From Nanobdellota archaeon (GTDB lineage: Archaea > Nanobdellota > Nanobdellia > Pacearchaeales > UBA12030), in the NCBI GenBank assembly GCA_022572525.1, contig JACZVS010000001.1, positions 1 through 29,562 of the forward strand: a DNA stretch of 29,562 nt. The letters are read 5' to 3'. The position numbers and the translations under genes were made by a program. Below, one piece after another: positions 1,268 to 9,808 of this stretch. Within the stretch, counting starts at the first letter, position 1, and each line of letters starts with the position of its first letter. The notes below the pieces were generated by a model. It was not told where the DNA came from. It searched no databases and was given only the letters and a program-made list of their open reading frames with translations.

Positions 1268-1377
1268 GCCTCGGTAGCTCAGTGGTAGAGCGCACGGCTG
1301 TTATGCCCTTTTGGAAAAAGCTCAACCAAAAGTAAGCAGAGACCGTGAAGTCGGCAGTTCGAGTCTGCCCCGGGGCG
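1268..1377 (+). tRNA. tRNA-Asn(GTT) with 38-nt intron at 37/38 (intron 1304-1341)
   Basis: Acceptor GCCTCGG/CCGGGGC, D arm GCTC/GAGC, anticodon stem CACGG/CCGTG, T arm GGCAG-TTCGAGT-CTGCC; central BHB helix CTGT/GCAG with 3-nt bulges TA|T and AG|A; no encoded CCA. Confidence 0.95.
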
Positions 1378-1844: not shown

Positions 1845-2192
1845 CTACTCAACTTTCGCGCCTTCTTTACATTCTTTCTCAGGCTGCAGGAGAATAACTT
1901 TCTGTTCCTTTCCTTTTGAATCTCGCTCAACAGCTGCAAGCAACATTCCCTGACTTTCAACTCCTCTAAGCTTTGCAGGCTCGAGATTCGTGAATACGAT
2001 TATCTGCTTGCCTTCCAGCTCTTTTTCATTGTAGAAATCCTTAATGCCAGCAACAATTTGTTTCTCTTCAGAACCAATATCTACCTTGAGAACAATAAGC
2101 TTATCTGCATTTGGATGTAGCTCTACAGATTTAACTCGAGCAACTCTGATATCGAGCTTCTGCCAATCTTTGAATGAAATTTTTTCCGTCAT
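1845..2192 (-). CDS. Stand-alone tRNA-binding OB-fold protein (MetRS C-terminal domain / Trbp111 / CsaA family)
   Basis: DWQKLDIRVARV, HPNADKL, KQIVAGI, FTNLEPAKLRGVESQGMLLAA; ATGA overlap with metG. Confidence 0.92.
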   Translation of the reverse strand: MTEKISFKDWQKLDIRVARVKSVELHPNADKLIVLKVDIGSEEKQIVAGIKDFYNEKELEGKQIIVFTNLEPAKLRGVESQGMLLAAVERDSKGKEQKVILLQPEKECKEGAKVE

Positions 2193-3661
2193 TTTACCTT
2201 TTTGAATAGAACATCAGATTTTTTAATCTTTATGCTGCCAAGCAGGCCAAATTTTGTTCTTTCAAGAGAGATCTTTTTTTCCTTTAACCTATTAAGGATT
2301 TCTTCAGAAGCTTCCGGAATGAAGGGATGTAAAAGAATGGAGGCAACTCTTAAAGAATCTGCGATTGTGTAAAGTGCTTTGTTGAGTTCTTTTCCTTTTA
2401 ATTGCCATACCTTCTTCTCCTGTATATACTTATTGCATTCGTCTACAAATTCAATGATTAGATGGAGTGCTTTGTCTAACTCATAATTGTCGAGCTTCTT
2501 TTCTATCTCTTTTAGTTTGAGCTTTCCTATAAGCCTTTTGTCTGGAGTTGTTTTTTTAATCTCCCCTGCCTTTTTTGCAAGGCCTTCTAATCTGCTTACA
2601 AGATTACCTAGCTTGTCTGCCAGTTCGTTATTCCTTTCTTTCAAGCCTTCTTCTGAAAAGTCTCCGTCTTCTCCGAAGACAATATCTTTTAGAATGTAGT
2701 ATCTAAGAGCATCTGCCCCATATGTTTCTACTAGTTTGATTGGGTTGATTATTCTTCCAGCCGCCTTACTTAACTTTTCTCCTTTTAGATTAATGAAACC
2801 ATGAACAAGAACTGTTTTTGGCAGCTTTATTCCTGCTGATGATAGCATAGATCCCCAAATCACAGTATGGTGCCACAGAATGTCTTTTCCAATTAGATGA
2901 ATGTCGGCAGGCCAATATTTCTCGAAAGTTTTTGTTTTGTAATCTATTCCACTTAGATAGTTGATGAGAGCATCAAACCAAACATAAATTGTATGCTTTT
3001 TGTTAAAAGGAACTGGAATTCCCCATTTAAGGGGAGTTCTACTTACACTTAAATCCTTGAGGCCATCTTTTAGCCTATTTAGGATTTCCGCCTGTTTATG
3101 TTTTGGAAGAATAAAGTTTTTATTTTTCTTTATATGCTCTATAATCTGCTTCTCATACTTACTCATCTTAAAGAAATAGCTTTCTTCTCTTACCTTCTCA
3201 AGAGGCTTTTTATGAGTAGGGCATTCTAAGTTCAGAGAGTCTTTCTCAAGATAGAAAGTTTCGCAGTCTATGCAGTAAAGACCTTCATACTCTCCCTTGT
3301 AGATATCCCCTTTTTTGTTTACTTTCTCTAAGATGGCTTGAGCAACTTTTCCATGAACTTTTTCAGTAGTTCTTATGAATCTATCATTTGAGATGTTTAG
3401 AACCTTGCAAAGATTCTTGAACTTTTTCGACATTTCATCAACAAATTCTTGAGGACTCTTCTTAGCCTTTTTAGCAGCTCTTTGAATCTTTAAGCCATGT
3501 TCATCTGTTCCTGTTAGAAAGAATACGTCGTATCCCTGCAAGCGTTTCCATCTGGCTATGCAGTCAGCACAAATCTTCTCATAAGCATGTCCTAAGTGGG
3601 GTGCAGAGCTAGGATAATCGATTGCAGTTGTGATGTAAAATGCTTTGTCTTTGGATATCAT
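2189..3661 (-). CDS. metG: Methionyl-tRNA synthetase (short form, single Zn knuckle)
   Basis: YITTAIDYP, HLGH (HIGH), LTGTDEHG, CIDC...CPTH, YVWFDALINY, GKDILWHH, KLSKA (KMSKS). Confidence 0.97.
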   Translation of the reverse strand: MISKDKAFYITTAIDYPSSAPHLGHAYEKICADCIARWKRLQGYDVFFLTGTDEHGLKIQRAAKKAKKSPQEFVDEMSKKFKNLCKVLNISNDRFIRTTEKVHGKVAQAILEKVNKKGDIYKGEYEGLYCIDCETFYLEKDSLNLECPTHKKPLEKVREESYFFKMSKYEKQIIEHIKKNKNFILPKHKQAEILNRLKDGLKDLSVSRTPLKWGIPVPFNKKHTIYVWFDALINYLSGIDYKTKTFEKYWPADIHLIGKDILWHHTVIWGSMLSSAGIKLPKTVLVHGFINLKGEKLSKAAGRIINPIKLVETYGADALRYYILKDIVFGEDGDFSEEGLKERNNELADKLGNLVSRLEGLAKKAGEIKKTTPDKRLIGKLKLKEIEKKLDNYELDKALHLIIEFVDECNKYIQEKKVWQLKGKELNKALYTIADSLRVASILLHPFIPEASEEILNRLKEKKISLERTKFGLLGSIKIKKSDVLFKKVK

Positions 3662-3710: not shown

Positions 3711-5168
3711 TTATTTAGGTTGTAACTTTTCTAAGTCATGGTAGAAGATCGTCCCAAACCACCTTCTCCACCTTATTTTCCTTATCCTGCTGCTCCCAAT
3801 GTAAATTCCGACGACAGCTTTTCTGACTAATCCTACCATTGGTTCTATCCCAAAGAACTCTATGCGTGGCTTTCCACTTTCTACTGGTCTAACCTCCTTT
3901 ATTTTTGGAAGGAATATCACAGAATTTATGAATCTTAAGATTCCTGAAATAAAGAATACTGTAAAGAAGGGTGAGGCAAAAAATCCTGGGAATATCGGAA
4001 TGCTGAAATTTGATAAGAAACCACCAAGATTCGCTCCAATAAAGATTCCAATTCCATTAAGTATATTAAAATATGTAAAGAAAGTTGCTCTTTGTTGTTG
4101 AGTTGAAGAATCATTTATGAAATTGAAAACAGAAAGGTTAAATCCGCTCCACACAATTCCTGCAATTAATTGTATGGCCAAGATAAAGTAAAGATTTCCT
4201 TTCGCAAAAATCCAAAGTATCGGTAATAATGGCAGGATAAAACCAGTAATCCTTAGAATGGAAACATTTCCATATTTATCAGCGACTTTCCCCCAATGAA
4301 CCATCACTAGCAAGCTACCAATCGAACCAGTACTCACTACAGCTGAAAAAGTCAAGTAGCTAAATTGAAGGCTTTTCAACATATAGACTGCAAAGAAAGG
4401 TCCTGAAATGCTTGCTGCAAGTGTCATGAATGTGGCATATAGGACAAATCTCGAAAAATTAGTCCCCCTCATTTTTCTTACAAACTTGATTAGGGAAAAT
4501 TTCTCTTCTCCGTTTATTACAAACTCCGGTTCATATTTTAGGTATAGATAATAAAGGGAGATAAGTCTGAATAAGACTGCCGCGAAGAAGATAAGTGCAA
4601 ATCCAAGAAAGACTTTATCATCTGTGAATTGGTTTAGAACTACTCCTGCGAGGATCGTCACAACTAAAGCAATGCTGCCAGCTATTCTATTTCTCTTTCC
4701 AAAATATTCTCCCCTTGCTCTTGATGGAACTAAATCTCCAATCCAAGATGCCCAAGTAGGGCCTGGGTAGTGTGAGATTATAGTATAGATAACAACTAGG
4801 AAAATCAGTATAGGAATTCTATTTTCTTCGAATAAAAAAGGGATTAAGAGTATTGGAATTAAGATTAAAGATTGAAGCAATACCCAGGTGAGAACAATCT
4901 TTTTTCTGCTTATTCCTTTGCGCAAACTTTTTAATGCTCTAAGCTGAAATATCGGAGCTAAAAGATTTGCAATAGAGGTTAATAAACCGATTTGCTGATT
5001 AGTTGCTCCTAGTGCAATTGCAAATGGGGACATGTAAGTATTAGTTACTCCTCCATGGGCTGCTGCAGCTGCTCCATCCTTTACACTATAATTCAGACTT
5101 TTCTTTACTTTCTCTGATTCTGTTTCAGGGACCTTCACTATCCGATAATTTACCTTTTTTTTAGACAT
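3711..5168 (-). CDS. MFS transporter
   Basis: About 12 hydrophobic segments; WGKVADKYG motif A-like loop; two-domain MFS layout. Confidence 0.85.
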   Translation of the reverse strand: MSKKKVNYRIVKVPETESEKVKKSLNYSVKDGAAAAAHGGVTNTYMSPFAIALGATNQQIGLLTSIANLLAPIFQLRALKSLRKGISRKKIVLTWVLLQSLILIPILLIPFLFEENRIPILIFLVVIYTIISHYPGPTWASWIGDLVPSRARGEYFGKRNRIAGSIALVVTILAGVVLNQFTDDKVFLGFALIFFAAVLFRLISLYYLYLKYEPEFVINGEEKFSLIKFVRKMRGTNFSRFVLYATFMTLAASISGPFFAVYMLKSLQFSYLTFSAVVSTGSIGSLLVMVHWGKVADKYGNVSILRITGFILPLLPILWIFAKGNLYFILAIQLIAGIVWSGFNLSVFNFINDSSTQQQRATFFTYFNILNGIGIFIGANLGGFLSNFSIPIFPGFFASPFFTVFFISGILRFINSVIFLPKIKEVRPVESGKPRIEFFGIEPMVGLVRKAVVGIYIGSSRIRKIRWRRWFGTIFYHDLEKLQPK

Positions 5169-5202: not shown

Positions 5203-5314
5203 TGCGCTAACCGGGAGTCGAACCCGGATATTCAGCTTTTTCCTTTCCTTCTTTGTGGAGCTTCTTAAGAAGGCCCTTGGGAAGCTGACATCTTAGCCAT
5301 TGGATTATTAGCGC
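5203..5314 (-). tRNA. tRNA-Gly(CCC) with 40-nt intron at 37/38 (intron 5238-5277)
   Basis: Reverse strand: acceptor GCGCTAA/TTAGCGC, anticodon stem TCAGC/GCTGA, loop TT-CCC-A|intron|A, T arm CCGGG-TTCGACT-CCCGG; BHB central helix TTCC/GGAA; no encoded CCA. Confidence 0.93.
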
Positions 5315-5345: not shown

Positions 5346-6011
5346 CTATTTCCCAAGCTCGCTCTTAATCTTGTTTGCGTACTTATGTGCTAGTGTAAGT
5401 GGCTCTGGAAATTTATGGGGCTCTCTTGAAAATTTTTCTGTTAACTTTACTGCTGTCTTGAGTGACATGCCGTGCCCCACACTTACAACTATTGGCTTGC
5501 TTCCCTTTTTTGTTTCTACCAATCTCCCTTTTTCTTTTCCGTTAATGTAAACTTTATCTCCTTTTTGTTCTCCAACAAGTAGACTTTTTGCTATTCCAAT
5601 CGTTGCACTTTCTATAGCAATACCAAAATGGGATGCCAAACCACAACTTCTTGGATGCGAGAGGCCATGGCCACTAACAAAAATTACATCTGGCTTTGTT
5701 TCCAATTTCCTGTAAGTGCTAATTAAAGCTGGCAGTTCTCTATAAGCGAGAAATCCTGGCAAGTAAGGAAATGCTGCCCTCTTTATTGTAAATTTCTGTT
5801 CAACAATCTCTAAGTCAGGAGTTATGGTTACAGCACTCGCGATAATATCCTTTCCAGCTGTAATGGCATCTATTCCTGCAATAAACTGAGCATCCTCAAA
5901 ATTCATCATATCTTTTTCTGATACAAGCTTTGCCAGCTTTTTCTGCTCGTCTTCTAGTTTTTTGATATCAATATTAAATCTCTTAACAATCTCTTCTTCT
6001 GTCTTTCCCAT
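5346..6011 (-). CDS. nfi: Endonuclease V family protein (one catalytic Asp replaced by Ser)
   Basis: AGID, FPYLPGFLAYRE, GHGLSHPR..GLASH, TIGIAKS, PIVVSVGH, PEPLTLAH; start moved to ATG 6011 because of GGGAG SD-like run upstream. Confidence 0.92.
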   Translation of the reverse strand: MGKTEEEIVKRFNIDIKKLEDEQKKLAKLVSEKDMMNFEDAQFIAGIDAITAGKDIIASAVTITPDLEIVEQKFTIKRAAFPYLPGFLAYRELPALISTYRKLETKPDVIFVSGHGLSHPRSCGLASHFGIAIESATIGIAKSLLVGEQKGDKVYINGKEKGRLVETKKGSKPIVVSVGHGMSLKTAVKLTEKFSREPHKFPEPLTLAHKYANKIKSELGK

Positions 6012-6116
6012 TTCTCTCCCTCTTTTCTTATGCAAGGTATGCTTCCTATTAAAATTTTTTGATGCCAAGTATTAAGGGAAACCTTTTTAAAGTTTTCAAG
6101 CTTCTTTTTGCTGAAA

Positions 6117-6743
6117 ATGTTTTTCCAAAAGACTAATTGTAAGGGGTGTGGCAGAAGAGCCAATAAAAATCATAGATATTGTCCTTTTTGTGGAGCTAAT
6201 CTAAAGGAGGATGAGATGAGAATGCCCGAGGATGAATTTACAGAGTTTTCTAGAATAAAACTTCCATTCCCCTTTAGCAAGATCTTCGAGAGACTTACAA
6301 AAGACATGGCTCAAGAGCTCGATAAATTATGGGAGGATGATCTAGGAGAAAAAATGATTAAGAGAGGGGGAATTAGTATTAGCATAAGTAATGAAGATGG
6401 CACTCCGAGGATAAGAATAGGAGAAATGGGAAATCCTGCAAGCAGAAAATCTAAAACAGTAATCAAAAGAAAAATAAGCAAAGAAGATGCTGAAAGATAT
6501 GCGAAACTGCCAAGAGAGGAAGCTAAGTCTAACGTCAAGAGGTTATCTGATAGAGTTGTTTATGAGATCTTACTTCCAGGAGTCAAGAATATTAAAGATA
6601 TTTTTGTACATAAATTACAGAATAGCATTGAGATAAAGGCTTTTGGAAAGGATAAGGCATACTTTAAGTTGATTCCAGTTGATATGAATGTTGAAAGATA
6701 TGGCCTTAAAGATGAGATGCTTATTCTTGAGTTGAAGGAATAG
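6117..6743 (+). CDS. Zinc-ribbon + Hsp20/alpha-crystallin-like domain protein
   Basis: CKGC...CPFC N-terminus; C-terminal YEILLPGV...IEIKA...YFKLIP beta-sandwich pattern; TTTTTAAA at 6084-6091 supports ATG 6117. Confidence 0.7.
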   Translation: MFFQKTNCKGCGRRANKNHRYCPFCGANLKEDEMRMPEDEFTEFSRIKLPFPFSKIFERLTKDMAQELDKLWEDDLGEKMIKRGGISISISNEDGTPRIRIGEMGNPASRKSKTVIKRKISKEDAERYAKLPREEAKSNVKRLSDRVVYEILLPGVKNIKDIFVHKLQNSIEIKAFGKDKAYFKLIPVDMNVERYGLKDEMLILELKE

Positions 6744-6792
6744 TCTCCTTTCGCTTTCTATATTGTAGTCTCTTATTAGTGATTACAGATAG

Positions 6793-6806
6793 AAGGATTT
6801 ATAAAG
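6793..6806 (+). promoter_or_regulatory. BRE/TATA box upstream of SLT gene leader
   Basis: AAGGA-TTTATAAA-G; predicted start near 6827. Confidence 0.6.
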
Positions 6807-6987
6807 TGTTGTTTGCTAAAATTATAATGCTTCTGTTAGAACAAGCGTAAATTTTGTATATTTTCGAGTCACACAATTCATCCTCAAAAATTTGAAGGTA
6901 AAATGGACGAATCCGAAGCATCTCATGAAATACTGAAGACGGCGAGATGTAGAATGAAATCTCTACTGCCTTCTTTTAGCATGGAAA

Positions 6988-7911
6988 ATGAAGTATCAGA
7001 GAACAAGACGAAGGATCACGAAGATCAAGCCAGGATCAAGATCCAGAAGCTCAAAGCTGGCTTTTCTAGCTGCAGCTTCGTTACTCCTCTCTCCTAGCAC
7101 TTCTCATCAGGCCTCTGATTCTATACATCAAGAAATATACTCTCAATCTTCTTCCAATACGCTAGAAGGAAGAGTTGTCGCGAGAGAAAATGTAAATTAC
7201 ACGGAGCTAGCAGATTATGCTGGTGAGGTAGAGTCTCAGGATAGACATACAAGGGACAGATTCTTGTTATCTATGCAAAACCTTGAGAAGTATGAACTTG
7301 AACCTTTAATTGATCTTTTTTGTGATTCTTTTGGGATAAAGGAAGAAGAAGTTATTCCTTATCTTATTAATGAATCTAATTTGAATCCTAATGCCAAGAC
7401 TACTGGTGGATGTAAGGGAATTGGCCAAATGAGTAAAGGAGCTACACAGAGCGCTAATACTTATTTTAAAAAGAGATGGGGGGTTGATCTTAAACTTAAA
7501 TATGGTGGAAATAAGAGAGATCAAATAAAATCTTCTCTTGCGTATTTTGCTAAAACTTACACTATGCTGAAGGAAAAGTATCCTGGATTAGGAAGAGAGG
7601 ACCTTCTGAGTTTAGTTTACTTTTCATATAATGCAGGTAATGGCCCTGTTAATCTAGCAGTGACAAGATTGCAGAGAAAAGGGGAAGATATTGTTTGGGG
7701 GAATGTGGAGCATGAAATTACTCCTCAGCTACTTAGAGCAAGCAGTTCAAAAGAATATGCGCAATGGTCTGATAGCAGTCTAAAAAGAAAAGTTAGGATA
7801 ATTAAGGACTATGTTAAACATGCTCGGATTTACAATAGTTGCTTGCATCAACTTCCACAGATAGCTGCTGAAAAAAGGGACTACGCAATAAAATATTCTA
7901 AAGCTTCTTGA
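6988..7911 (+). CDS. Lytic transglycosylase (SLT-domain) with N-terminal signal/anchor
   Basis: Motif I INES (Glu129), motif II GIGQM, motif III SYNAG; basic then hydrophobic N-terminus. Confidence 0.85.
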   Translation: MKYQRTRRRITKIKPGSRSRSSKLAFLAAASLLLSPSTSHQASDSIHQEIYSQSSSNTLEGRVVARENVNYTELADYAGEVESQDRHTRDRFLLSMQNLEKYELEPLIDLFCDSFGIKEEEVIPYLINESNLNPNAKTTGGCKGIGQMSKGATQSANTYFKKRWGVDLKLKYGGNKRDQIKSSLAYFAKTYTMLKEKYPGLGREDLLSLVYFSYNAGNGPVNLAVTRLQRKGEDIVWGNVEHEITPQLLRASSSKEYAQWSDSSLKRKVRIIKDYVKHARIYNSCLHQLPQIAAEKRDYAIKYSKAS

Positions 7912-8702
7912 ATAGTTGAGACTTCTATTACTTCGATTCCAATTTCCTCTCCAACATTTTTTTCAATAGGAATTTTTTCTATTGTGCACACTTCATTGTT
8001 CCCTTGCATTTTGCAAGTTCTTTCCGTTTCAAATGTTGTTTCACTTCCTTGTCCTTTTGGAACTAAGAAGATAGTGGCCCCTTCATTTTTTACAGCCTCT
8101 GCTTTTGCAGAAATAGCTGAAACTCCTCCTATTCTTCCATCAGAAAATATTCTTCCTGTTATCATTACATTTTCTCTTAATTCAAGATCTTGTAGGGCAG
8201 CTATTGTTGCAATTGTTAAGGCAGCTCCTGCACTTGGTCCACCTATGCTGTCAGCTTCTGCGTAAAGTGTATAGGTTAAATCGTAATTTTCTAGATTCAA
8301 GCCAGTTAAATCAGAGGAAACTTTTTTTGCAGTTATAATGCTCTCTTGGGTGTCTGTAAAGAACAGTAAGCTGTCGATGTCTACAAGTGTTTTACCATTC
8401 CCCTCTCTTGCCTCAACTACGAGTAGTGTAACAACCCCCTTTCCTTCTCTGTCAACTGCAGGAACTTTCAGCAGAATAGCTTCTTCACTTAAGTCTGCGA
8501 TTCCAGCTTGTAAGACTGATGGCCTTTGTTCTTCTTGCAATGGTTCTAATGGCCTTTCTACAGATTGTCTTTCTACTTTAGATTGAAGATTAAAAGTTGT
8601 AGAAACTACTGCTAGGAAAAGAAGAAACATAATCCCAGTTGCGATGAATAAAAAAGAGTTCTCTTTTTTGAGTTTCTTGATTTGTTTCTGTTTGCTTCTC
8701 AT
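7881..8702 (-). CDS. Membrane-anchored Lon-type (S16) protease domain, no AAA+ module
   Basis: GGPSAG Ser and ISAKA Lys 43 residues apart; TGRIFSDGRIG; one N-terminal TM; ATG 8702 follows ATTATTAA box. Confidence 0.88.
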   Translation of the reverse strand: MRSKQKQIKKLKKENSFLFIATGIMFLLFLAVVSTTFNLQSKVERQSVERPLEPLQEEQRPSVLQAGIADLSEEAILLKVPAVDREGKGVVTLLVVEAREGNGKTLVDIDSLLFFTDTQESIITAKKVSSDLTGLNLENYDLTYTLYAEADSIGGPSAGAALTIATIAALQDLELRENVMITGRIFSDGRIGGVSAISAKAEAVKNEGATIFLVPKGQGSETTFETERTCKMQGNNEVCTIEKIPIEKNVGEEIGIEVIEVSTIQEALEYFIA

Positions 8703-8746
8703 ACTTTTATCCAAGATTGAGACTTAATAATCTTTTCTTTAAACCC

Positions 8747-9808
8747 TTAAATCACAAACTTCCCTTTGTTCTGGATAATCTTGCCATCAGCATAGATCTT
8801 GCCCCCCTTTCTTAAATCCTTGATAAAGTCAAGATGCACTGCAGATTCATTCTTGCCCCTGCATTCTTTGTAGGCTGAGCCTATGGCGAAGTGTACTGTG
8901 CCTCCTATTTTTTCATCAAATAAGATTTGTTTGACATGTCGCCTTATATTGTAATTTGTTCCTATTCCACATTCTCCAATGTAACTTGAGCCTTTGTCTG
9001 TGTTGAGAAGTGCATGTAGATAATCTTGGTTTTTCTCTGCAGTTGCCTTTACAATCTTCCCCTTTCTGAATTCAAAGTAAACTCCTTGTAACTCTTTTCC
9101 TGTAGATACAGCAGGAATGTCAAATTTTATGTGGCCTTCAACAGTTGTTTCAACAGGGGCTGTGAAGATTTCACCACCAGGCATATTAAATGCGCCATCA
9201 TCTATGATCCATACCCTTCCTTTATTACTAAAGCTAATGTCCGTGTCTTTTCCGACTACACGTATTTCTTCAGCCTTCTGAAGAACTCTCCTAAGCTTTT
9301 CCATCTTTCTGCCTATTTTCTTCCAATCTTGGATGCATGCTCCATACACGAAGTCTTCATATTCAACAAGTGACATTTCTGCTTCTTGAGCAAATGCGGC
9401 TGTTGGATAATGGACAATAACCCACTTTTTCTTTAGTCTTTCTTTATGTACTGGATGAACTGTTTTGCCTCGCAAAGAAATCTTTTTTGGATCTATATTG
9501 CTTAATTCTCTTAAGTTTCTTGCTGCGCCAATTCCTATCCAGCCATCCATTTGCTTTATTTCATAGATGGCAATTTCTGGCAGATGCTTTAGCTGTTCAG
9601 TAGAAGCATTCTTGAAGTACTGATAACTTATGCCAGGAACATCTATTTTTGTGATTGGATATGCTCCTTTTTGCACAATTTGCCTGTAAAGTTCAAGGAT
9701 TAGTGGAGAAGCTTCTGAAGAAGCACTTATCATGATACTCTCTCCCTTTTTGACTCTTACGCTATGCTCTACAAGTATTCTTGCGAGTTTTTGTATTCTT
9801 GGATCCAT
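8747..9808 (-). CDS. Aminopeptidase, M29 family (AmpS/PepS-like)
   Basis: NMPGGEIFTAP, GECGIG, FDEKIGGTVHFAIG, SAVHLD. Confidence 0.93.
   Translation of the reverse strand: MDPRIQKLARILVEHSVRVKKGESIMISASSEASPLILELYRQIVQKGAYPITKIDVPGISYQYFKNASTEQLKHLPEIAIYEIKQMDGWIGIGAARNLRELSNIDPKKISLRGKTVHPVHKERLKKKWVIVHYPTAAFAQEAEMSLVEYEDFVYGACIQDWKKIGRKMEKLRRVLQKAEEIRVVGKDTDISFSNKGRVWIIDDGAFNMPGGEIFTAPVETTVEGHIKFDIPAVSTGKELQGVYFEFRKGKIVKATAEKNQDYLHALLNTDKGSSYIGECGIGTNYNIRRHVKQILFDEKIGGTVHFAIGSAYKECRGKNESAVHLDFIKDLRKGGKIYADGKIIQNKGKFVI

What the first reader, a model, noticed from the sequence alone, without database searches (positions are those of the whole stretch)
6988..7911. Intact-looking lytic transglycosylase in an archaeon
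All three SLT motifs are present (catalytic Glu129 in INES, GIGQM, SYNAG) behind an export-like N-terminus. Archaea do not make peptidoglycan (established), so an exported murein-cleaving enzyme points to attack on, attachment to, or scavenging from bacteria, or to a new glycan substrate such as host S-layer glycans. For a DPANN cell usually assumed to have archaeal hosts this is a notable clue.
Basis: partly seen in the sequence, partly recalled or inferred. Interest (0 to 1): 0.78.

Follow-up and report, generated by a model that had tools for sequence, protein, structure and literature searches.

The report
Compact exported lytic transglycosylase, DPANN archaeon
A tiny marine DPANN archaeon that shows no sign of making a bacterial-type cell wall really does encode an intact, exported enzyme of the kind that cuts bacterial cell-wall sugar chains, but such genes are already published for these archaea and occur in about half of the genomes sampled from its order.

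Summary
Window 6988-7911(+) is a real 307-aa gene. It has a Sec-like N-terminus, a disordered linker, and a confidently folded all-helical SLT/goose-lysozyme domain (residues 65-307). Glu129-Ser130, GIGQ (144-147) and YNAG (214-217) are invariant in every relative found.

It is native to an archaeal genome. Its composition matches the rest of the genome, and the same three-gene neighbourhood recurs in three divergent relatives. An independent assembly spans the gene and both flanks. Its neighbours are archaeal housekeeping genes.

In the 76%-complete genome I found no peptidoglycan synthesis genes and none of the three muropeptide-recycling enzymes I searched for. The best reading is therefore an exported enzyme that opens the wall of bacterial partners or prey. 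This function is inferred, not shown.

The idea is not new. Castelle 2021, Vigneron 2022 and others reported lytic transglycosylases in Woese-/Pacearchaeota. I found Pfam SLT in 98 of 201 genomes of this order. This scan already holds 258 similar notes on other DNA, none on this gene.

What is particular here is a rare, divergent, compact subfamily. It has about 7 sequence clusters, scores just under Pfam's threshold, and has neither a pilin-type signal nor a pilus-operon context. Verdict: a new member of a known kind, of modest interest.

The parts
6988..7911 (+). Complete CDS of the 307-aa SLT-domain protein (P0001), stop codon included
   Evidence: ORF list and translation. Orthologs at 36-99% identity.
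6988..7101 (+). Residues 1-38: Sec-type signal peptide, or possibly a signal anchor. Basic n-region (+10), 11-residue h-region LAFLAAASLLL, polar c-region. The cleavage site is not determined; STS|HQ after residue 39 is one candidate.
   Evidence: Hydropathy and (-3,-1) scan across 7 family members. No class III (prepilin) pattern. No TatC in the genome. pLDDT below 50.
7102..7179 (+). Residues 39-64: Ser/Gln-rich, poorly conserved, disordered linker
   Evidence: pLDDT about 40. Gapped and variable in the alignment.
7180..7908 (+). Residues 65-307: globular all-helical domain. It comprises N-terminal helices (71-115), the SLT core (119-230) and a C-terminal helical extension (237-306).
   Evidence: AF2 pLDDT above 90. 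Foldseek hits to MltF, MltE, MltC, MltD, Slt70, phiKZ gp144 and g-type lysozyme. AFDB MltF-type models align over residues 72-306/307.
7372..7377 (+). Glu129-Ser130, motif I; Glu129 is the predicted catalytic acid/base
   Evidence: Invariant in 13 sequences. Aligns with the E-S of MltC in the profile search. Codons checked.
7411..7428 (+). Cys142-x-Gly144-Ile-Gly-Gln147, motif II (GLMQ-type). Cys142 is a clade-typical extra conserved residue.
   Evidence: G144 and Q147 invariant; G141 and C142 at least 90% conserved.
7627..7638 (+). Tyr214-Asn-Ala-Gly217, motif III (AYNxG-type)
   Evidence: Y214, N215 and G217 invariant.
7696..7812 (+). Conserved positions of the C-terminal extension (W237, L249, Y275), shared with the longer DPANN SLT proteins
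   Evidence: At least 90% conserved in A2. The profile is matched to about positions 262-275 by DPANN proteins that were not in the profile (P0015, P0016, L011, L013, L014), but only to about 195-232 by the other SLT hits.
6108..6743 (+). Syntenic upstream neighbour: 211-aa zinc-ribbon protein of unknown function. Context only; no functional link shown.
   Evidence: Conserved next to the SLT gene in L006, L007 and L016. Only weak zinc-ribbon Pfam hits.
7881..8714 (-). Syntenic convergent neighbour: 277-aa membrane-anchored Lon_C (S16) protease-domain protein. Its 3' end overlaps the SLT 3' end by 31 bp. Context only.
   Evidence: Pfam Lon_C 29 bits. NCBIfam Lon/SepM-like hits below their cut-offs. 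Conserved in L006, L007 and L016/L010.

Best explanation
The gene encodes a pre-protein that the Sec system exports from a small marine DPANN archaeon of the Woese-/Pacearchaeota type (GTDB Nanoarchaeota). Outside the cell, a roughly 25-residue flexible linker carries a 243-residue MltF/MltC-like family-1 lytic transglycosylase module (GH23, SLT fold). The enzyme is either released after signal cleavage or held on the membrane by the short hydrophobic segment.

By homology, Glu129 acts as the single acid/base. It would cleave the beta-1,4 MurNAc-GlcNAc bond of peptidoglycan and leave a 1,6-anhydro-MurNAc end. No peptidoglycan synthesis genes were found in the 76%-complete genome, so the target is most likely the sacculus of neighbouring bacteria. 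The enzyme would locally open the wall of a bacterial partner or prey, for contact, access to cell contents or killing. Feeding on muropeptides is less likely.

Shown: the gene is real, native, under constraint and SLT-folded, with all catalytic motifs and an export-type N-terminus. Inferred: secretion, catalytic activity, peptidoglycan as substrate, and the ecological purpose.
For: Fold and motifs.

Export signal conserved in all family members. It is not a prepilin signal, and no TatC was found.

Native archaeal gene:
- Archaeal SSU rRNA, intron-sized tRNA hits and housekeeping neighbours EndoV, MetRS, GluRS, L10e and PCMT.
- GC, GC3, codon usage and 4-mer profile match the genome: r 0.748 against a mean of 0.749.
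- The order Zn-ribbon gene / SLT / Lon_C-like gene is conserved in three divergent relatives at 38-53% protein identity.
- An independent Logan contig of 3,725 nt, 99.5% identical, covers 5673-9397 without a break.

No own-wall machinery found: no PBP, SEDS or GT51, and the single Mur-ligase-fold protein is FolC at 391 bits.

Lineage context:
- The nearest non-orthologous relatives, P0009 and P0013, lie on contigs with TFB, S8e, LSM, S17e and tRNA-intron endonuclease.
- SLT occurs in 98 of 201 genomes of the order and in 0 of 4 control archaea.
- The same genome has a second, canonical SLT protein on C39 at 52 bits.

The published interpretation is the same: PMC8204110, PMC9723730, PMC10936187. 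Archaeal peptidoglycan hydrolases that kill bacteria have been shown experimentally for other enzyme types (PMC12352652).
Against: - No biochemical data exist for any DPANN SLT protein that I could find.
- The Pfam score of the protein itself is just under the gathering threshold, and the family sits on a long branch (2.16 substitutions per site), so altered specificity is possible.
- Motif II reads GIGQ instead of GLMQ.
- The genome is only 76% complete, so the absence of wall-synthesis or recycling genes is not proven.
- No bacterial partner is identified.
- No expression data: no RNA run was shown to hold the gene.
Confidence: 0.6

Rival explanations
1. The SLT fold has been retargeted to a non-murein glycan. 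Candidates are chitin-like or other beta-1,4 GlcNAc-containing polymers, glycans of an archaeal host's S-layer or pseudomurein, or the cell's own surface glycans.
For: The family is divergent: a long branch, a sub-threshold Pfam score and GIGQ in place of GLMQ. From established knowledge, family-1 enzymes and g-type lysozymes bind chito-oligosaccharides; PDB titles include MltE with chitopentaose and MltD with chitotetraose. DPANN hosts known from culture are archaea.
Against: All three catalytic and substrate-groove motifs of murein-specific family-1 enzymes are invariant. The closest sequence and structure matches are all murein enzymes. Formation of the 1,6-anhydro product needs a MurNAc-type C6-OH geometry (established mechanism). 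No lytic transglycosylase is known to me that acts on S-layer glycans.
Confidence: 0.12
2. The domain serves mainly as a non-catalytic adhesin that binds peptidoglycan strands to hold the archaeon on a bacterium, without significant cleavage.
For: Castelle et al. 2021 (PMC8204110, read) propose attachment as one role. The flexible linker and a possible membrane anchor would suit a tether.
Against: Catalytic Glu129-Ser130 is invariant across all relatives down to 21% identity. A pure binding module would be expected to lose it in some lineages. There are no added binding modules; the LysM-like guess for the C39 paralog was not confirmed.
Confidence: 0.1
3. The enzyme feeds the cell: it releases anhydromuropeptides that are imported and catabolised as a source of amino sugars and amino acids.
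For: The genome is tiny and biosynthetically poor. Peptidases (M29, S9, Lon_C-like) and an MFS transporter lie on the same contig.
Against: No AnmK, Amidase_2 (AmpD/AmiD type) or GH3 (NagZ) was found in the genome. The MFS transporter gives only weak LtaA/Tet-type hits and no AmpG hit. The genome is 76% complete, so absence is not proven.
Confidence: 0.08
4. The gene remodels a wall polymer of the archaeon itself, or makes gaps for the archaeon's own surface machinery, as specialised bacterial lytic transglycosylases do.
For: The genome carries bacterial-type envelope genes (lspA-lgt at 25061-26347), a prepilin peptidase and a T2SSE-type ATPase operon.
Against: No PBP, SEDS or GT51 was found, and no Mur ligases except FolC. 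The gene is not in a pilus or secretion operon; its neighbours are housekeeping genes.
Confidence: 0.05
5. Artefact: a bacterial or phage fragment was mis-binned or mis-assembled into an archaeal contig, or the gene is a prophage endolysin.
For: The genome is a fragmented MAG of 100 contigs, and SLT is typically bacterial or phage-borne.
Against: The gene lies in the middle of the MAG's longest contig, between archaeal housekeeping genes. An independent assembly spans it. Synteny is conserved in three other archaeal genomes or contigs. Composition is native. tblastn found no hit in 50,697 phage records. MAG contamination is 0.63%.
Confidence: 0.02

Closest known systems
Bacterial family-1 lytic transglycosylases (Pfam SLT PF01464, CAZy GH23), especially the catalytic modules of MltF (P. 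aeruginosa, PDB 4p0g/5aa1) and MltC (E. coli, PDB 4c5f)
   Same: The all-helical lysozyme-like fold. A single catalytic Glu followed by Ser. GLMQ-type and AYNxG-type motifs. A module size of about 230 residues that includes helices after the core. The alignment covers residues 72-307 in MltF-type AFDB models.
   Different: Only 14-17% identity to solved structures. GIGQ replaces GLMQ, and there is an extra conserved Cys142. It lacks the ABC-type substrate-binding module of MltF, the lipobox, and the DUF-type N-domain of MltC. The host organism is an archaeon in which no murein synthesis genes were found.
[quoted passage not shown] 2021, PMC8204110; also Vigneron et al. 2022, PMC9723730)
   Same: The same archaeal lineage and the same catalytic domain type. 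Sequence conservation is shared through the C-terminal extension (W237, L249, Y275), with proteins encoded in open frames of 1,732-2,815 aa in the same order. The inferred role against bacterial walls is the same.
   Different: This protein is 307 aa with a single domain behind a plain Sec-like signal, not a 1,000-3,000-aa multidomain surface protein. It forms its own strongly supported clade (100/100) on a long branch. It is rare: about 7 clusters among 1.8 billion representatives. Its true orthologs were found in only 2 of 4 other genomes of its own family and in none of the other families of the order.
Pilin-borne SLT proteins of DPANN archaea noted earlier in this scan (e1-761849, e1-1226462, e1-4799791)
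   Same: A DPANN archaeon, an SLT domain with an intact catalytic motif, and presumed action on bacterial walls.
   Different: No class III (prepilin) signal in any of the seven family members, and no pilus-operon context. The same genome does have a pilus-type operon ending in a weakly SLT-like ORF on contig C22, which fits that pattern better.
Experimentally characterised archaeal peptidoglycan hydrolases that kill bacteria (Strock et al. 2025, PMC12352652)
   Same: Archaeal, secreted, of bacterial origin and directed at murein. Nanoarchaeota are noted there as rich in such genes.
   Different: That survey searched for recognisable modular peptidoglycan hydrolases and names a murein transglycosylase only in passing. 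No DPANN enzyme is stated to have been assayed in the passages I read.

Membership tests
Family-1 lytic transglycosylase / Pfam SLT (PF01464) / GH23 | Score at or above Pfam's gathering threshold (21.3 bits) | tested here: inconclusive
   The protein scores 20.0 bits, E 5e-4. The same region scores 21.6 bits in the six-frame genome search. Orthologs P0007 (30.8) and P0005 (21.5) pass, P0008 (20.6) does not, and P0004 and P0006 give no hit. The family profile against PDB sequences gives MltC at E 1e-15.
Family-1 lytic transglycosylase / Pfam SLT (PF01464) / GH23 | Motif I: catalytic Glu followed by Ser (E-S) | tested here: met
   E129-S130 is invariant in 13 sequences and aligns with the E-S of MltC.
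Family-1 lytic transglycosylase / Pfam SLT (PF01464) / GH23 | Motif II G-L-M-Q type and motif III A-Y-N-x-G type | tested here: met
   G144-I-G-Q147, with G and Q invariant. Y214-N-A-G217, with Y, N and G invariant. Variant: GIGQ rather than GLMQ.
Family-1 lytic transglycosylase / Pfam SLT (PF01464) / GH23 | Goose-lysozyme-like all-alpha fold | tested here: met
   AF2 mean pLDDT 83.7, above 90 over residues 65-307. In Foldseek against PDB, all 34 hits at E<=1e-3 are lytic transglycosylases; g-type lysozymes follow at E about 1.6e-2. TM reaches 0.59 by target.
Family-1 lytic transglycosylase / Pfam SLT (PF01464) / GH23 | Non-hydrolytic cleavage of MurNAc-beta-1,4-GlcNAc giving 1,6-anhydro-MurNAc | not testable with these tools
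   Needs an enzyme assay on sacculi with LC-MS. Only one acidic residue (E129) is invariant across the wider alignment. This fits a lytic transglycosylase rather than a two-carboxylate lysozyme, but does not prove it.
Large extracellular SLT proteins of Woese-/Pacearchaeota (fam00969, Castelle 2021) | Encoded in Woese-/Pacearchaeota-type DPANN genomes | tested here: met
   Relatives sit in MAGs titled 'Nanoarchaeota archaeon' and 'Candidatus Woesearchaeota archaeon'. Genome of 0.58 Mb with an archaeal SSU rRNA.
Large extracellular SLT proteins of Woese-/Pacearchaeota (fam00969, Castelle 2021) | Large multidomain architecture (up to about 3,000 aa) | tested here: not met
   307 aa, with one globular domain. 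I could not check actual membership of the published cluster fam00969; its sequences are not at hand.
Pilin-carried SLT proteins of DPANN (earlier notes of this scan) | Class III (prepilin) signal: K/R-G/A/S followed by about 20 uncharged hydrophobic residues | tested here: not met
   0 of 7 family members meet the pattern. P0005 is borderline and P0001 has only an 11-residue h-region.
Pilin-carried SLT proteins of DPANN (earlier notes of this scan) | Location in a pilus-type operon | tested here: not met
   Neighbours are EndoV, a Zn-ribbon protein, a Lon_C-like protease and an M29 aminopeptidase. The same neighbours occur in relatives.

The most novel reading that the evidence does not exclude
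The compact, Sec-exported and apparently untethered form is a diffusible muralytic weapon or tool. It would be distinct in role from the giant cell-bound and pilin-borne SLT proteins of its relatives. Alternatively, this long-branch subfamily has shifted to a non-murein glycan. Either case would show functional diversification of an anciently acquired bacterial enzyme within DPANN archaea.
Probability: 0.12. Interest if true: 0.55.

Novelty: new member of a known kind. Interest (0 to 1): 0.3.

Why it matters
Most cultured DPANN archaea live on other archaea. Murein-cutting enzymes are one of the few genomic hints that some Woese-/Pacearchaeota interact physically with bacteria, which is an open question about cross-domain symbiosis or predation.

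This gene adds one more intact example in a marine lineage. It also shows that standard Pfam-threshold annotation misses part of the repertoire: the precomputed Pfam field was empty for P0002 and P0003. The protein is small and single-domain, so it would be far easier to express and assay than the 2,000-3,000-aa proteins described so far.

It does not change the picture, because the inference is already published and the domain is common in the order.

Tried and rejected
- Single-sequence phmmer against PDB sequences gave nothing relevant. Only the family profile worked.
- Phage origin: tblastn against 50,697 phage records found no match. BFVD fold hits are generic SLT or endolysin folds at a query TM of 0.45 or less.
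- Tat export: P0001 has a T-R-R-R stretch and P0003 an R-R-N-L-L stretch, but this is not conserved across the family, and no TatC was found.
- Lipoprotein: the genome has lspA-lgt, but no family member has a lipobox Cys after the h-region.
- Prepilin-type signal: not found.
- AmpG-like importer nearby: the MFS transporter at 3711-5168 gives only weak LtaA/Tet-type hits.
- Own peptidoglycan: the Mur_ligase_M hit on C42 is FolC.
- A LysM-like C-terminus in the C39 paralog, guessed by eye, has no Pfam support even at E<=1.
- The tree does not resolve the origin of the short family. Its grouping with the long DPANN proteins has only 81/89 support, and long-branch rows (P0012, the C39 paralog) are unstable. 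I make no claim about a donor.
- Promoter and RBS: the upstream 244 bp is AT-rich with several TATA-like strings and no clear Shine-Dalgarno sequence. I drew no conclusion.
- RNA evidence: no RNA run was shown to hold the gene.

Full report
**1. The observation**

Window 6988-7911(+) is an uninterrupted ORF of 307 codons with an ATG start.
- Glu129 is codon 7372-7374, GAA, within I-N-E-S.
- G144-I-G-Q147 is 7417-7428.
- Y214-N-A-G217 is 7627-7638.

Taken alone, the Pfam SLT match is marginal: 20.0 bits against a gathering score of 21.3, E 5e-4. The six-frame search gave 21.6 bits. Independent evidence removes the doubt:
- An exhaustive HMMER scan of 1.84 billion cluster representatives found six close clusters (39-99% identity). 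Below those came only proteins that Pfam recognises firmly as SLT, where scanned (48-74 bits).
- In the 13-sequence alignment A2 (down to 21% identity) the only invariant residues are E129, S130, G144, Q147, Y214, N215 and G217. These are the three family-1 lytic transglycosylase motifs.
- A profile of that alignment hits solved MltC (1e-15), MltF (8e-14), Slt70 (7e-11), T7 gp16 (2e-10) and MltE/EmtA (1e-6). The family's E-S lies on the E-S of MltC.
- An AlphaFold2 model is confident over residues 65-307 (pLDDT above 90; mean 83.7, pTM 0.75) and all-helical. Foldseek returns only lytic transglycosylases and goose-type lysozymes from PDB, AFDB and BFVD.

**2. Anatomy**

- Residues 1-38 form a basic n-region (10 K/R, no D/E), an 11-residue hydrophobic core (LAFLAAASLLL) and a polar Ser-rich stretch with small-residue (-3,-1) sites. 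No other hydrophobic segment exists. All seven family members have an equivalent N-terminus, although its sequence is not conserved.
- None has a lipobox cysteine. None fits a class III prepilin signal. No TatC was found. A class I Sec signal is therefore the best reading. An uncleaved anchor cannot be excluded without a predictor or an experiment.
- Residues 39-64 are a disordered, variable linker.
- Residues 65-307 form one globular domain: helices 71-115, the SLT core 119-230, and helices 237-306.
- MltF-type models in AFDB align over residues 72-306/307, so the module resembles the larger MltF-type catalytic module rather than a minimal SLT core.
- Within the C-terminal part, W237, L249 and Y275 are conserved together with longer DPANN proteins. 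DPANN proteins that were not used to build the profile (P0015, P0016, and the open frames in L011, L013 and L014) match it to about positions 262-267. The other SLT hits stop between about 195 and 232.

**3. Is it native to an archaeon?**

Yes.
- The window is the whole of contig C38, the longest contig of a 579-kb, 100-contig MAG rated 75.9% complete and 0.63% contaminated.
- The MAG has an archaeal SSU rRNA at 1,220 bits.
- The window carries two intron-sized tRNA hits of 110-112 nt. It also carries EndoV, MetRS, a GluRS of the class-I E/Q type, L10e (Ribosomal_L16), PCMT and other housekeeping genes.
- The SLT gene's GC (0.378), GC3 (0.282), codon usage and tetranucleotide profile are indistinguishable from the rest of the genome: r 0.748 against a mean of 0.749 +/- 0.053 for other chunks.
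- The order Zn-ribbon gene / SLT / convergent Lon_C-like gene recurs on an ENA contig (L006), a JGI contig (L007) and a 'Candidatus Woesearchaeota' MAG (L016 = L010). SLT identities there are 53%, 43% and 38%.
- A Logan contig from a marine metagenome, 3,725 nt long and differing at 20 positions, covers 5673-9397 in one piece. More divergent pieces occur in marine sediment metagenomes.
- tblastn found no phage record.
- The misassembly and prophage readings are therefore rejected.

**4. What it is for**

The 76%-complete genome gave no hit to PBP transpeptidase, SEDS or GT51 glycosyltransferase families, each of which rang in 10 of 10 control bacteria. Its only Mur-ligase-fold protein is FolC: 391 bits against a cut-off of 163. 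An own-wall role is thus unsupported.

AnmK, Amidase_2 and GH3/NagZ were not found either. The MFS transporter 2 kb away is not AmpG-like. Feeding on anhydromuropeptides is therefore not supported.

The catalytic motifs are strictly conserved across a family that has otherwise diverged to 36% identity. This argues for an active enzyme rather than a mere binding module.

I therefore commit to this reading: an exported lytic transglycosylase that opens the sacculus of neighbouring bacteria to allow contact, access to contents or killing (confidence about 0.6). Export, activity, substrate and purpose are inferences.

**5. How unusual is it?**

Not very, for this lineage.
- Castelle et al. [quoted passage not shown]
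- Vigneron et al. 2022 report GH23 in Woesearchaeota and propose predation on bacteria (PMC9723730).
- A marine oxygen-deficient-zone study reports it in three DPANN MAGs (PMC10936187).
- Strock et al. 2025 show experimentally that archaeal peptidoglycan hydrolases kill bacteria, and note their prominence in Nanoarchaeota (PMC12352652).
- My own count: Pfam SLT is present in 98 of 201 genomes sampled from the same order (36 of 76 high-quality ones). It occurs in open frames of about 200-480 aa as well as 2,000-3,000 aa, and in 0 of 4 control archaea.
- This scan already holds 258 notes of the same kind in at least 207 genomes, many on pilin-type carriers. None is on this sequence.

**6. What is particular here**

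- The orthologous family is small and divergent, with about seven clusters.
- It was found in 2 of 4 other genomes of its own GTDB family. It was found in no other family of the order, where the profile hits only SLT segments inside giant open frames and one short 201-aa frame.
- In a domain tree it is a 100/100 clade on a branch of 2.16 substitutions per site. It groups only weakly (81/89) with the longer DPANN proteins. No donor or order of events can be claimed.
- It is a compact single-domain form with a plain Sec-like signal and housekeeping neighbours. This sets it apart from both the giant surface proteins and the pilin-borne forms.
- The same genome also has a canonical SLT protein on C39 (455 aa, 52 bits). 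It further has a pilus-type operon on C22 that ends in a weakly SLT-like ORF cut by the contig end. The compact enzyme is therefore one of at least two murein-directed candidates in this cell.

**7. Verdict**

This is a new member (a divergent compact subfamily) of a known kind. Interest is modest. Its practical value is that it would be an easy-to-express representative for the first biochemical test of DPANN lytic transglycosylases.

Noticed in passing
L020:3727-5094 (+) = G000 contig C39: A second SLT-domain protein in the same genome: 455 aa, Pfam SLT 52 bits, with R-E-S and AYNRG motifs. It is only remotely similar to P0001 (BLASTP E 0.011). It lies upstream of an ORF that looks like a threonyl-tRNA synthetase by eye. 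A LysM-like C-terminus, guessed by eye, got no Pfam support.
   Followed up: partly
L021:1-8090 (-) = G000 contig C22: A same-strand gene row: a 772-aa T2SSE-type ATPase (5772-8090), then 708-aa, 206-aa and 318-aa ORFs with no Pfam hit. About 1 kb downstream there is a 322-aa ORF cut by the contig end. That ORF has a hydrophobic N-terminus and a weak match to the first 27 positions of SLT (T-Q-E-S; 15-17 bits; hhalign probability 58%). This resembles the pilus-operon-borne wall hydrolases noted earlier in the scan. A prepilin peptidase (Peptidase_A24, 48.5 bits) is on C27.
   Followed up: partly
window 7881-8714 (-): A 277-aa protein with an N-terminal basic stretch plus a transmembrane segment and a Lon_C (S16) protease domain with G-P-S-A-G, but no ATPase domain. 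If the positive-inside rule holds, the protease domain faces outward. Its 3' end overlaps the SLT gene's 3' end by 31 bp, and the pair is syntenic in four genomes. No functional link to the SLT gene is shown.
   Followed up: partly
window 6108-6743 (+): A 211-aa protein with an N-terminal C-x2-C...C-x2-C zinc ribbon and a conserved C-terminal domain that has no Pfam or NCBIfam hit. It is conserved immediately upstream of the SLT gene in relatives. One relative has a 159-aa gene inserted between the two.
   Followed up: no
window 1268-1377 (+) and 5203-5314 (-): Rfam finds two tRNA hits of 110 and 112 nt that ARAGORN did not report, presumably because they contain introns. Earlier notes on this window discuss their introns.
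   Followed up: no
window 25061-26347 (+): Adjacent Peptidase_A8 (LspA, 78 bits) and LGT (167 bits) genes, the bacterial-type lipoprotein maturation pair. An earlier agent already followed this up (e1-5287028). The SLT family has no lipobox, so it is not a substrate.
   Followed up: partly
window 1845-3661 (-): Methionyl-tRNA synthetase appears split. A 490-aa core (2189-3661) is followed by a separate 115-aa tRNA_bind-domain ORF (1845-2192), with a 4-nt overlap between the stop and the next start.
   Followed up: no
L017:3294-5257 and L018:5262-7081: Two distant archaeal contigs carry their SLT proteins (805 and 623 aa) in the same slot, next to TFB, ribosomal protein S8e and an LSM protein. 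This suggests a second conserved SLT locus in another DPANN lineage.
   Followed up: no
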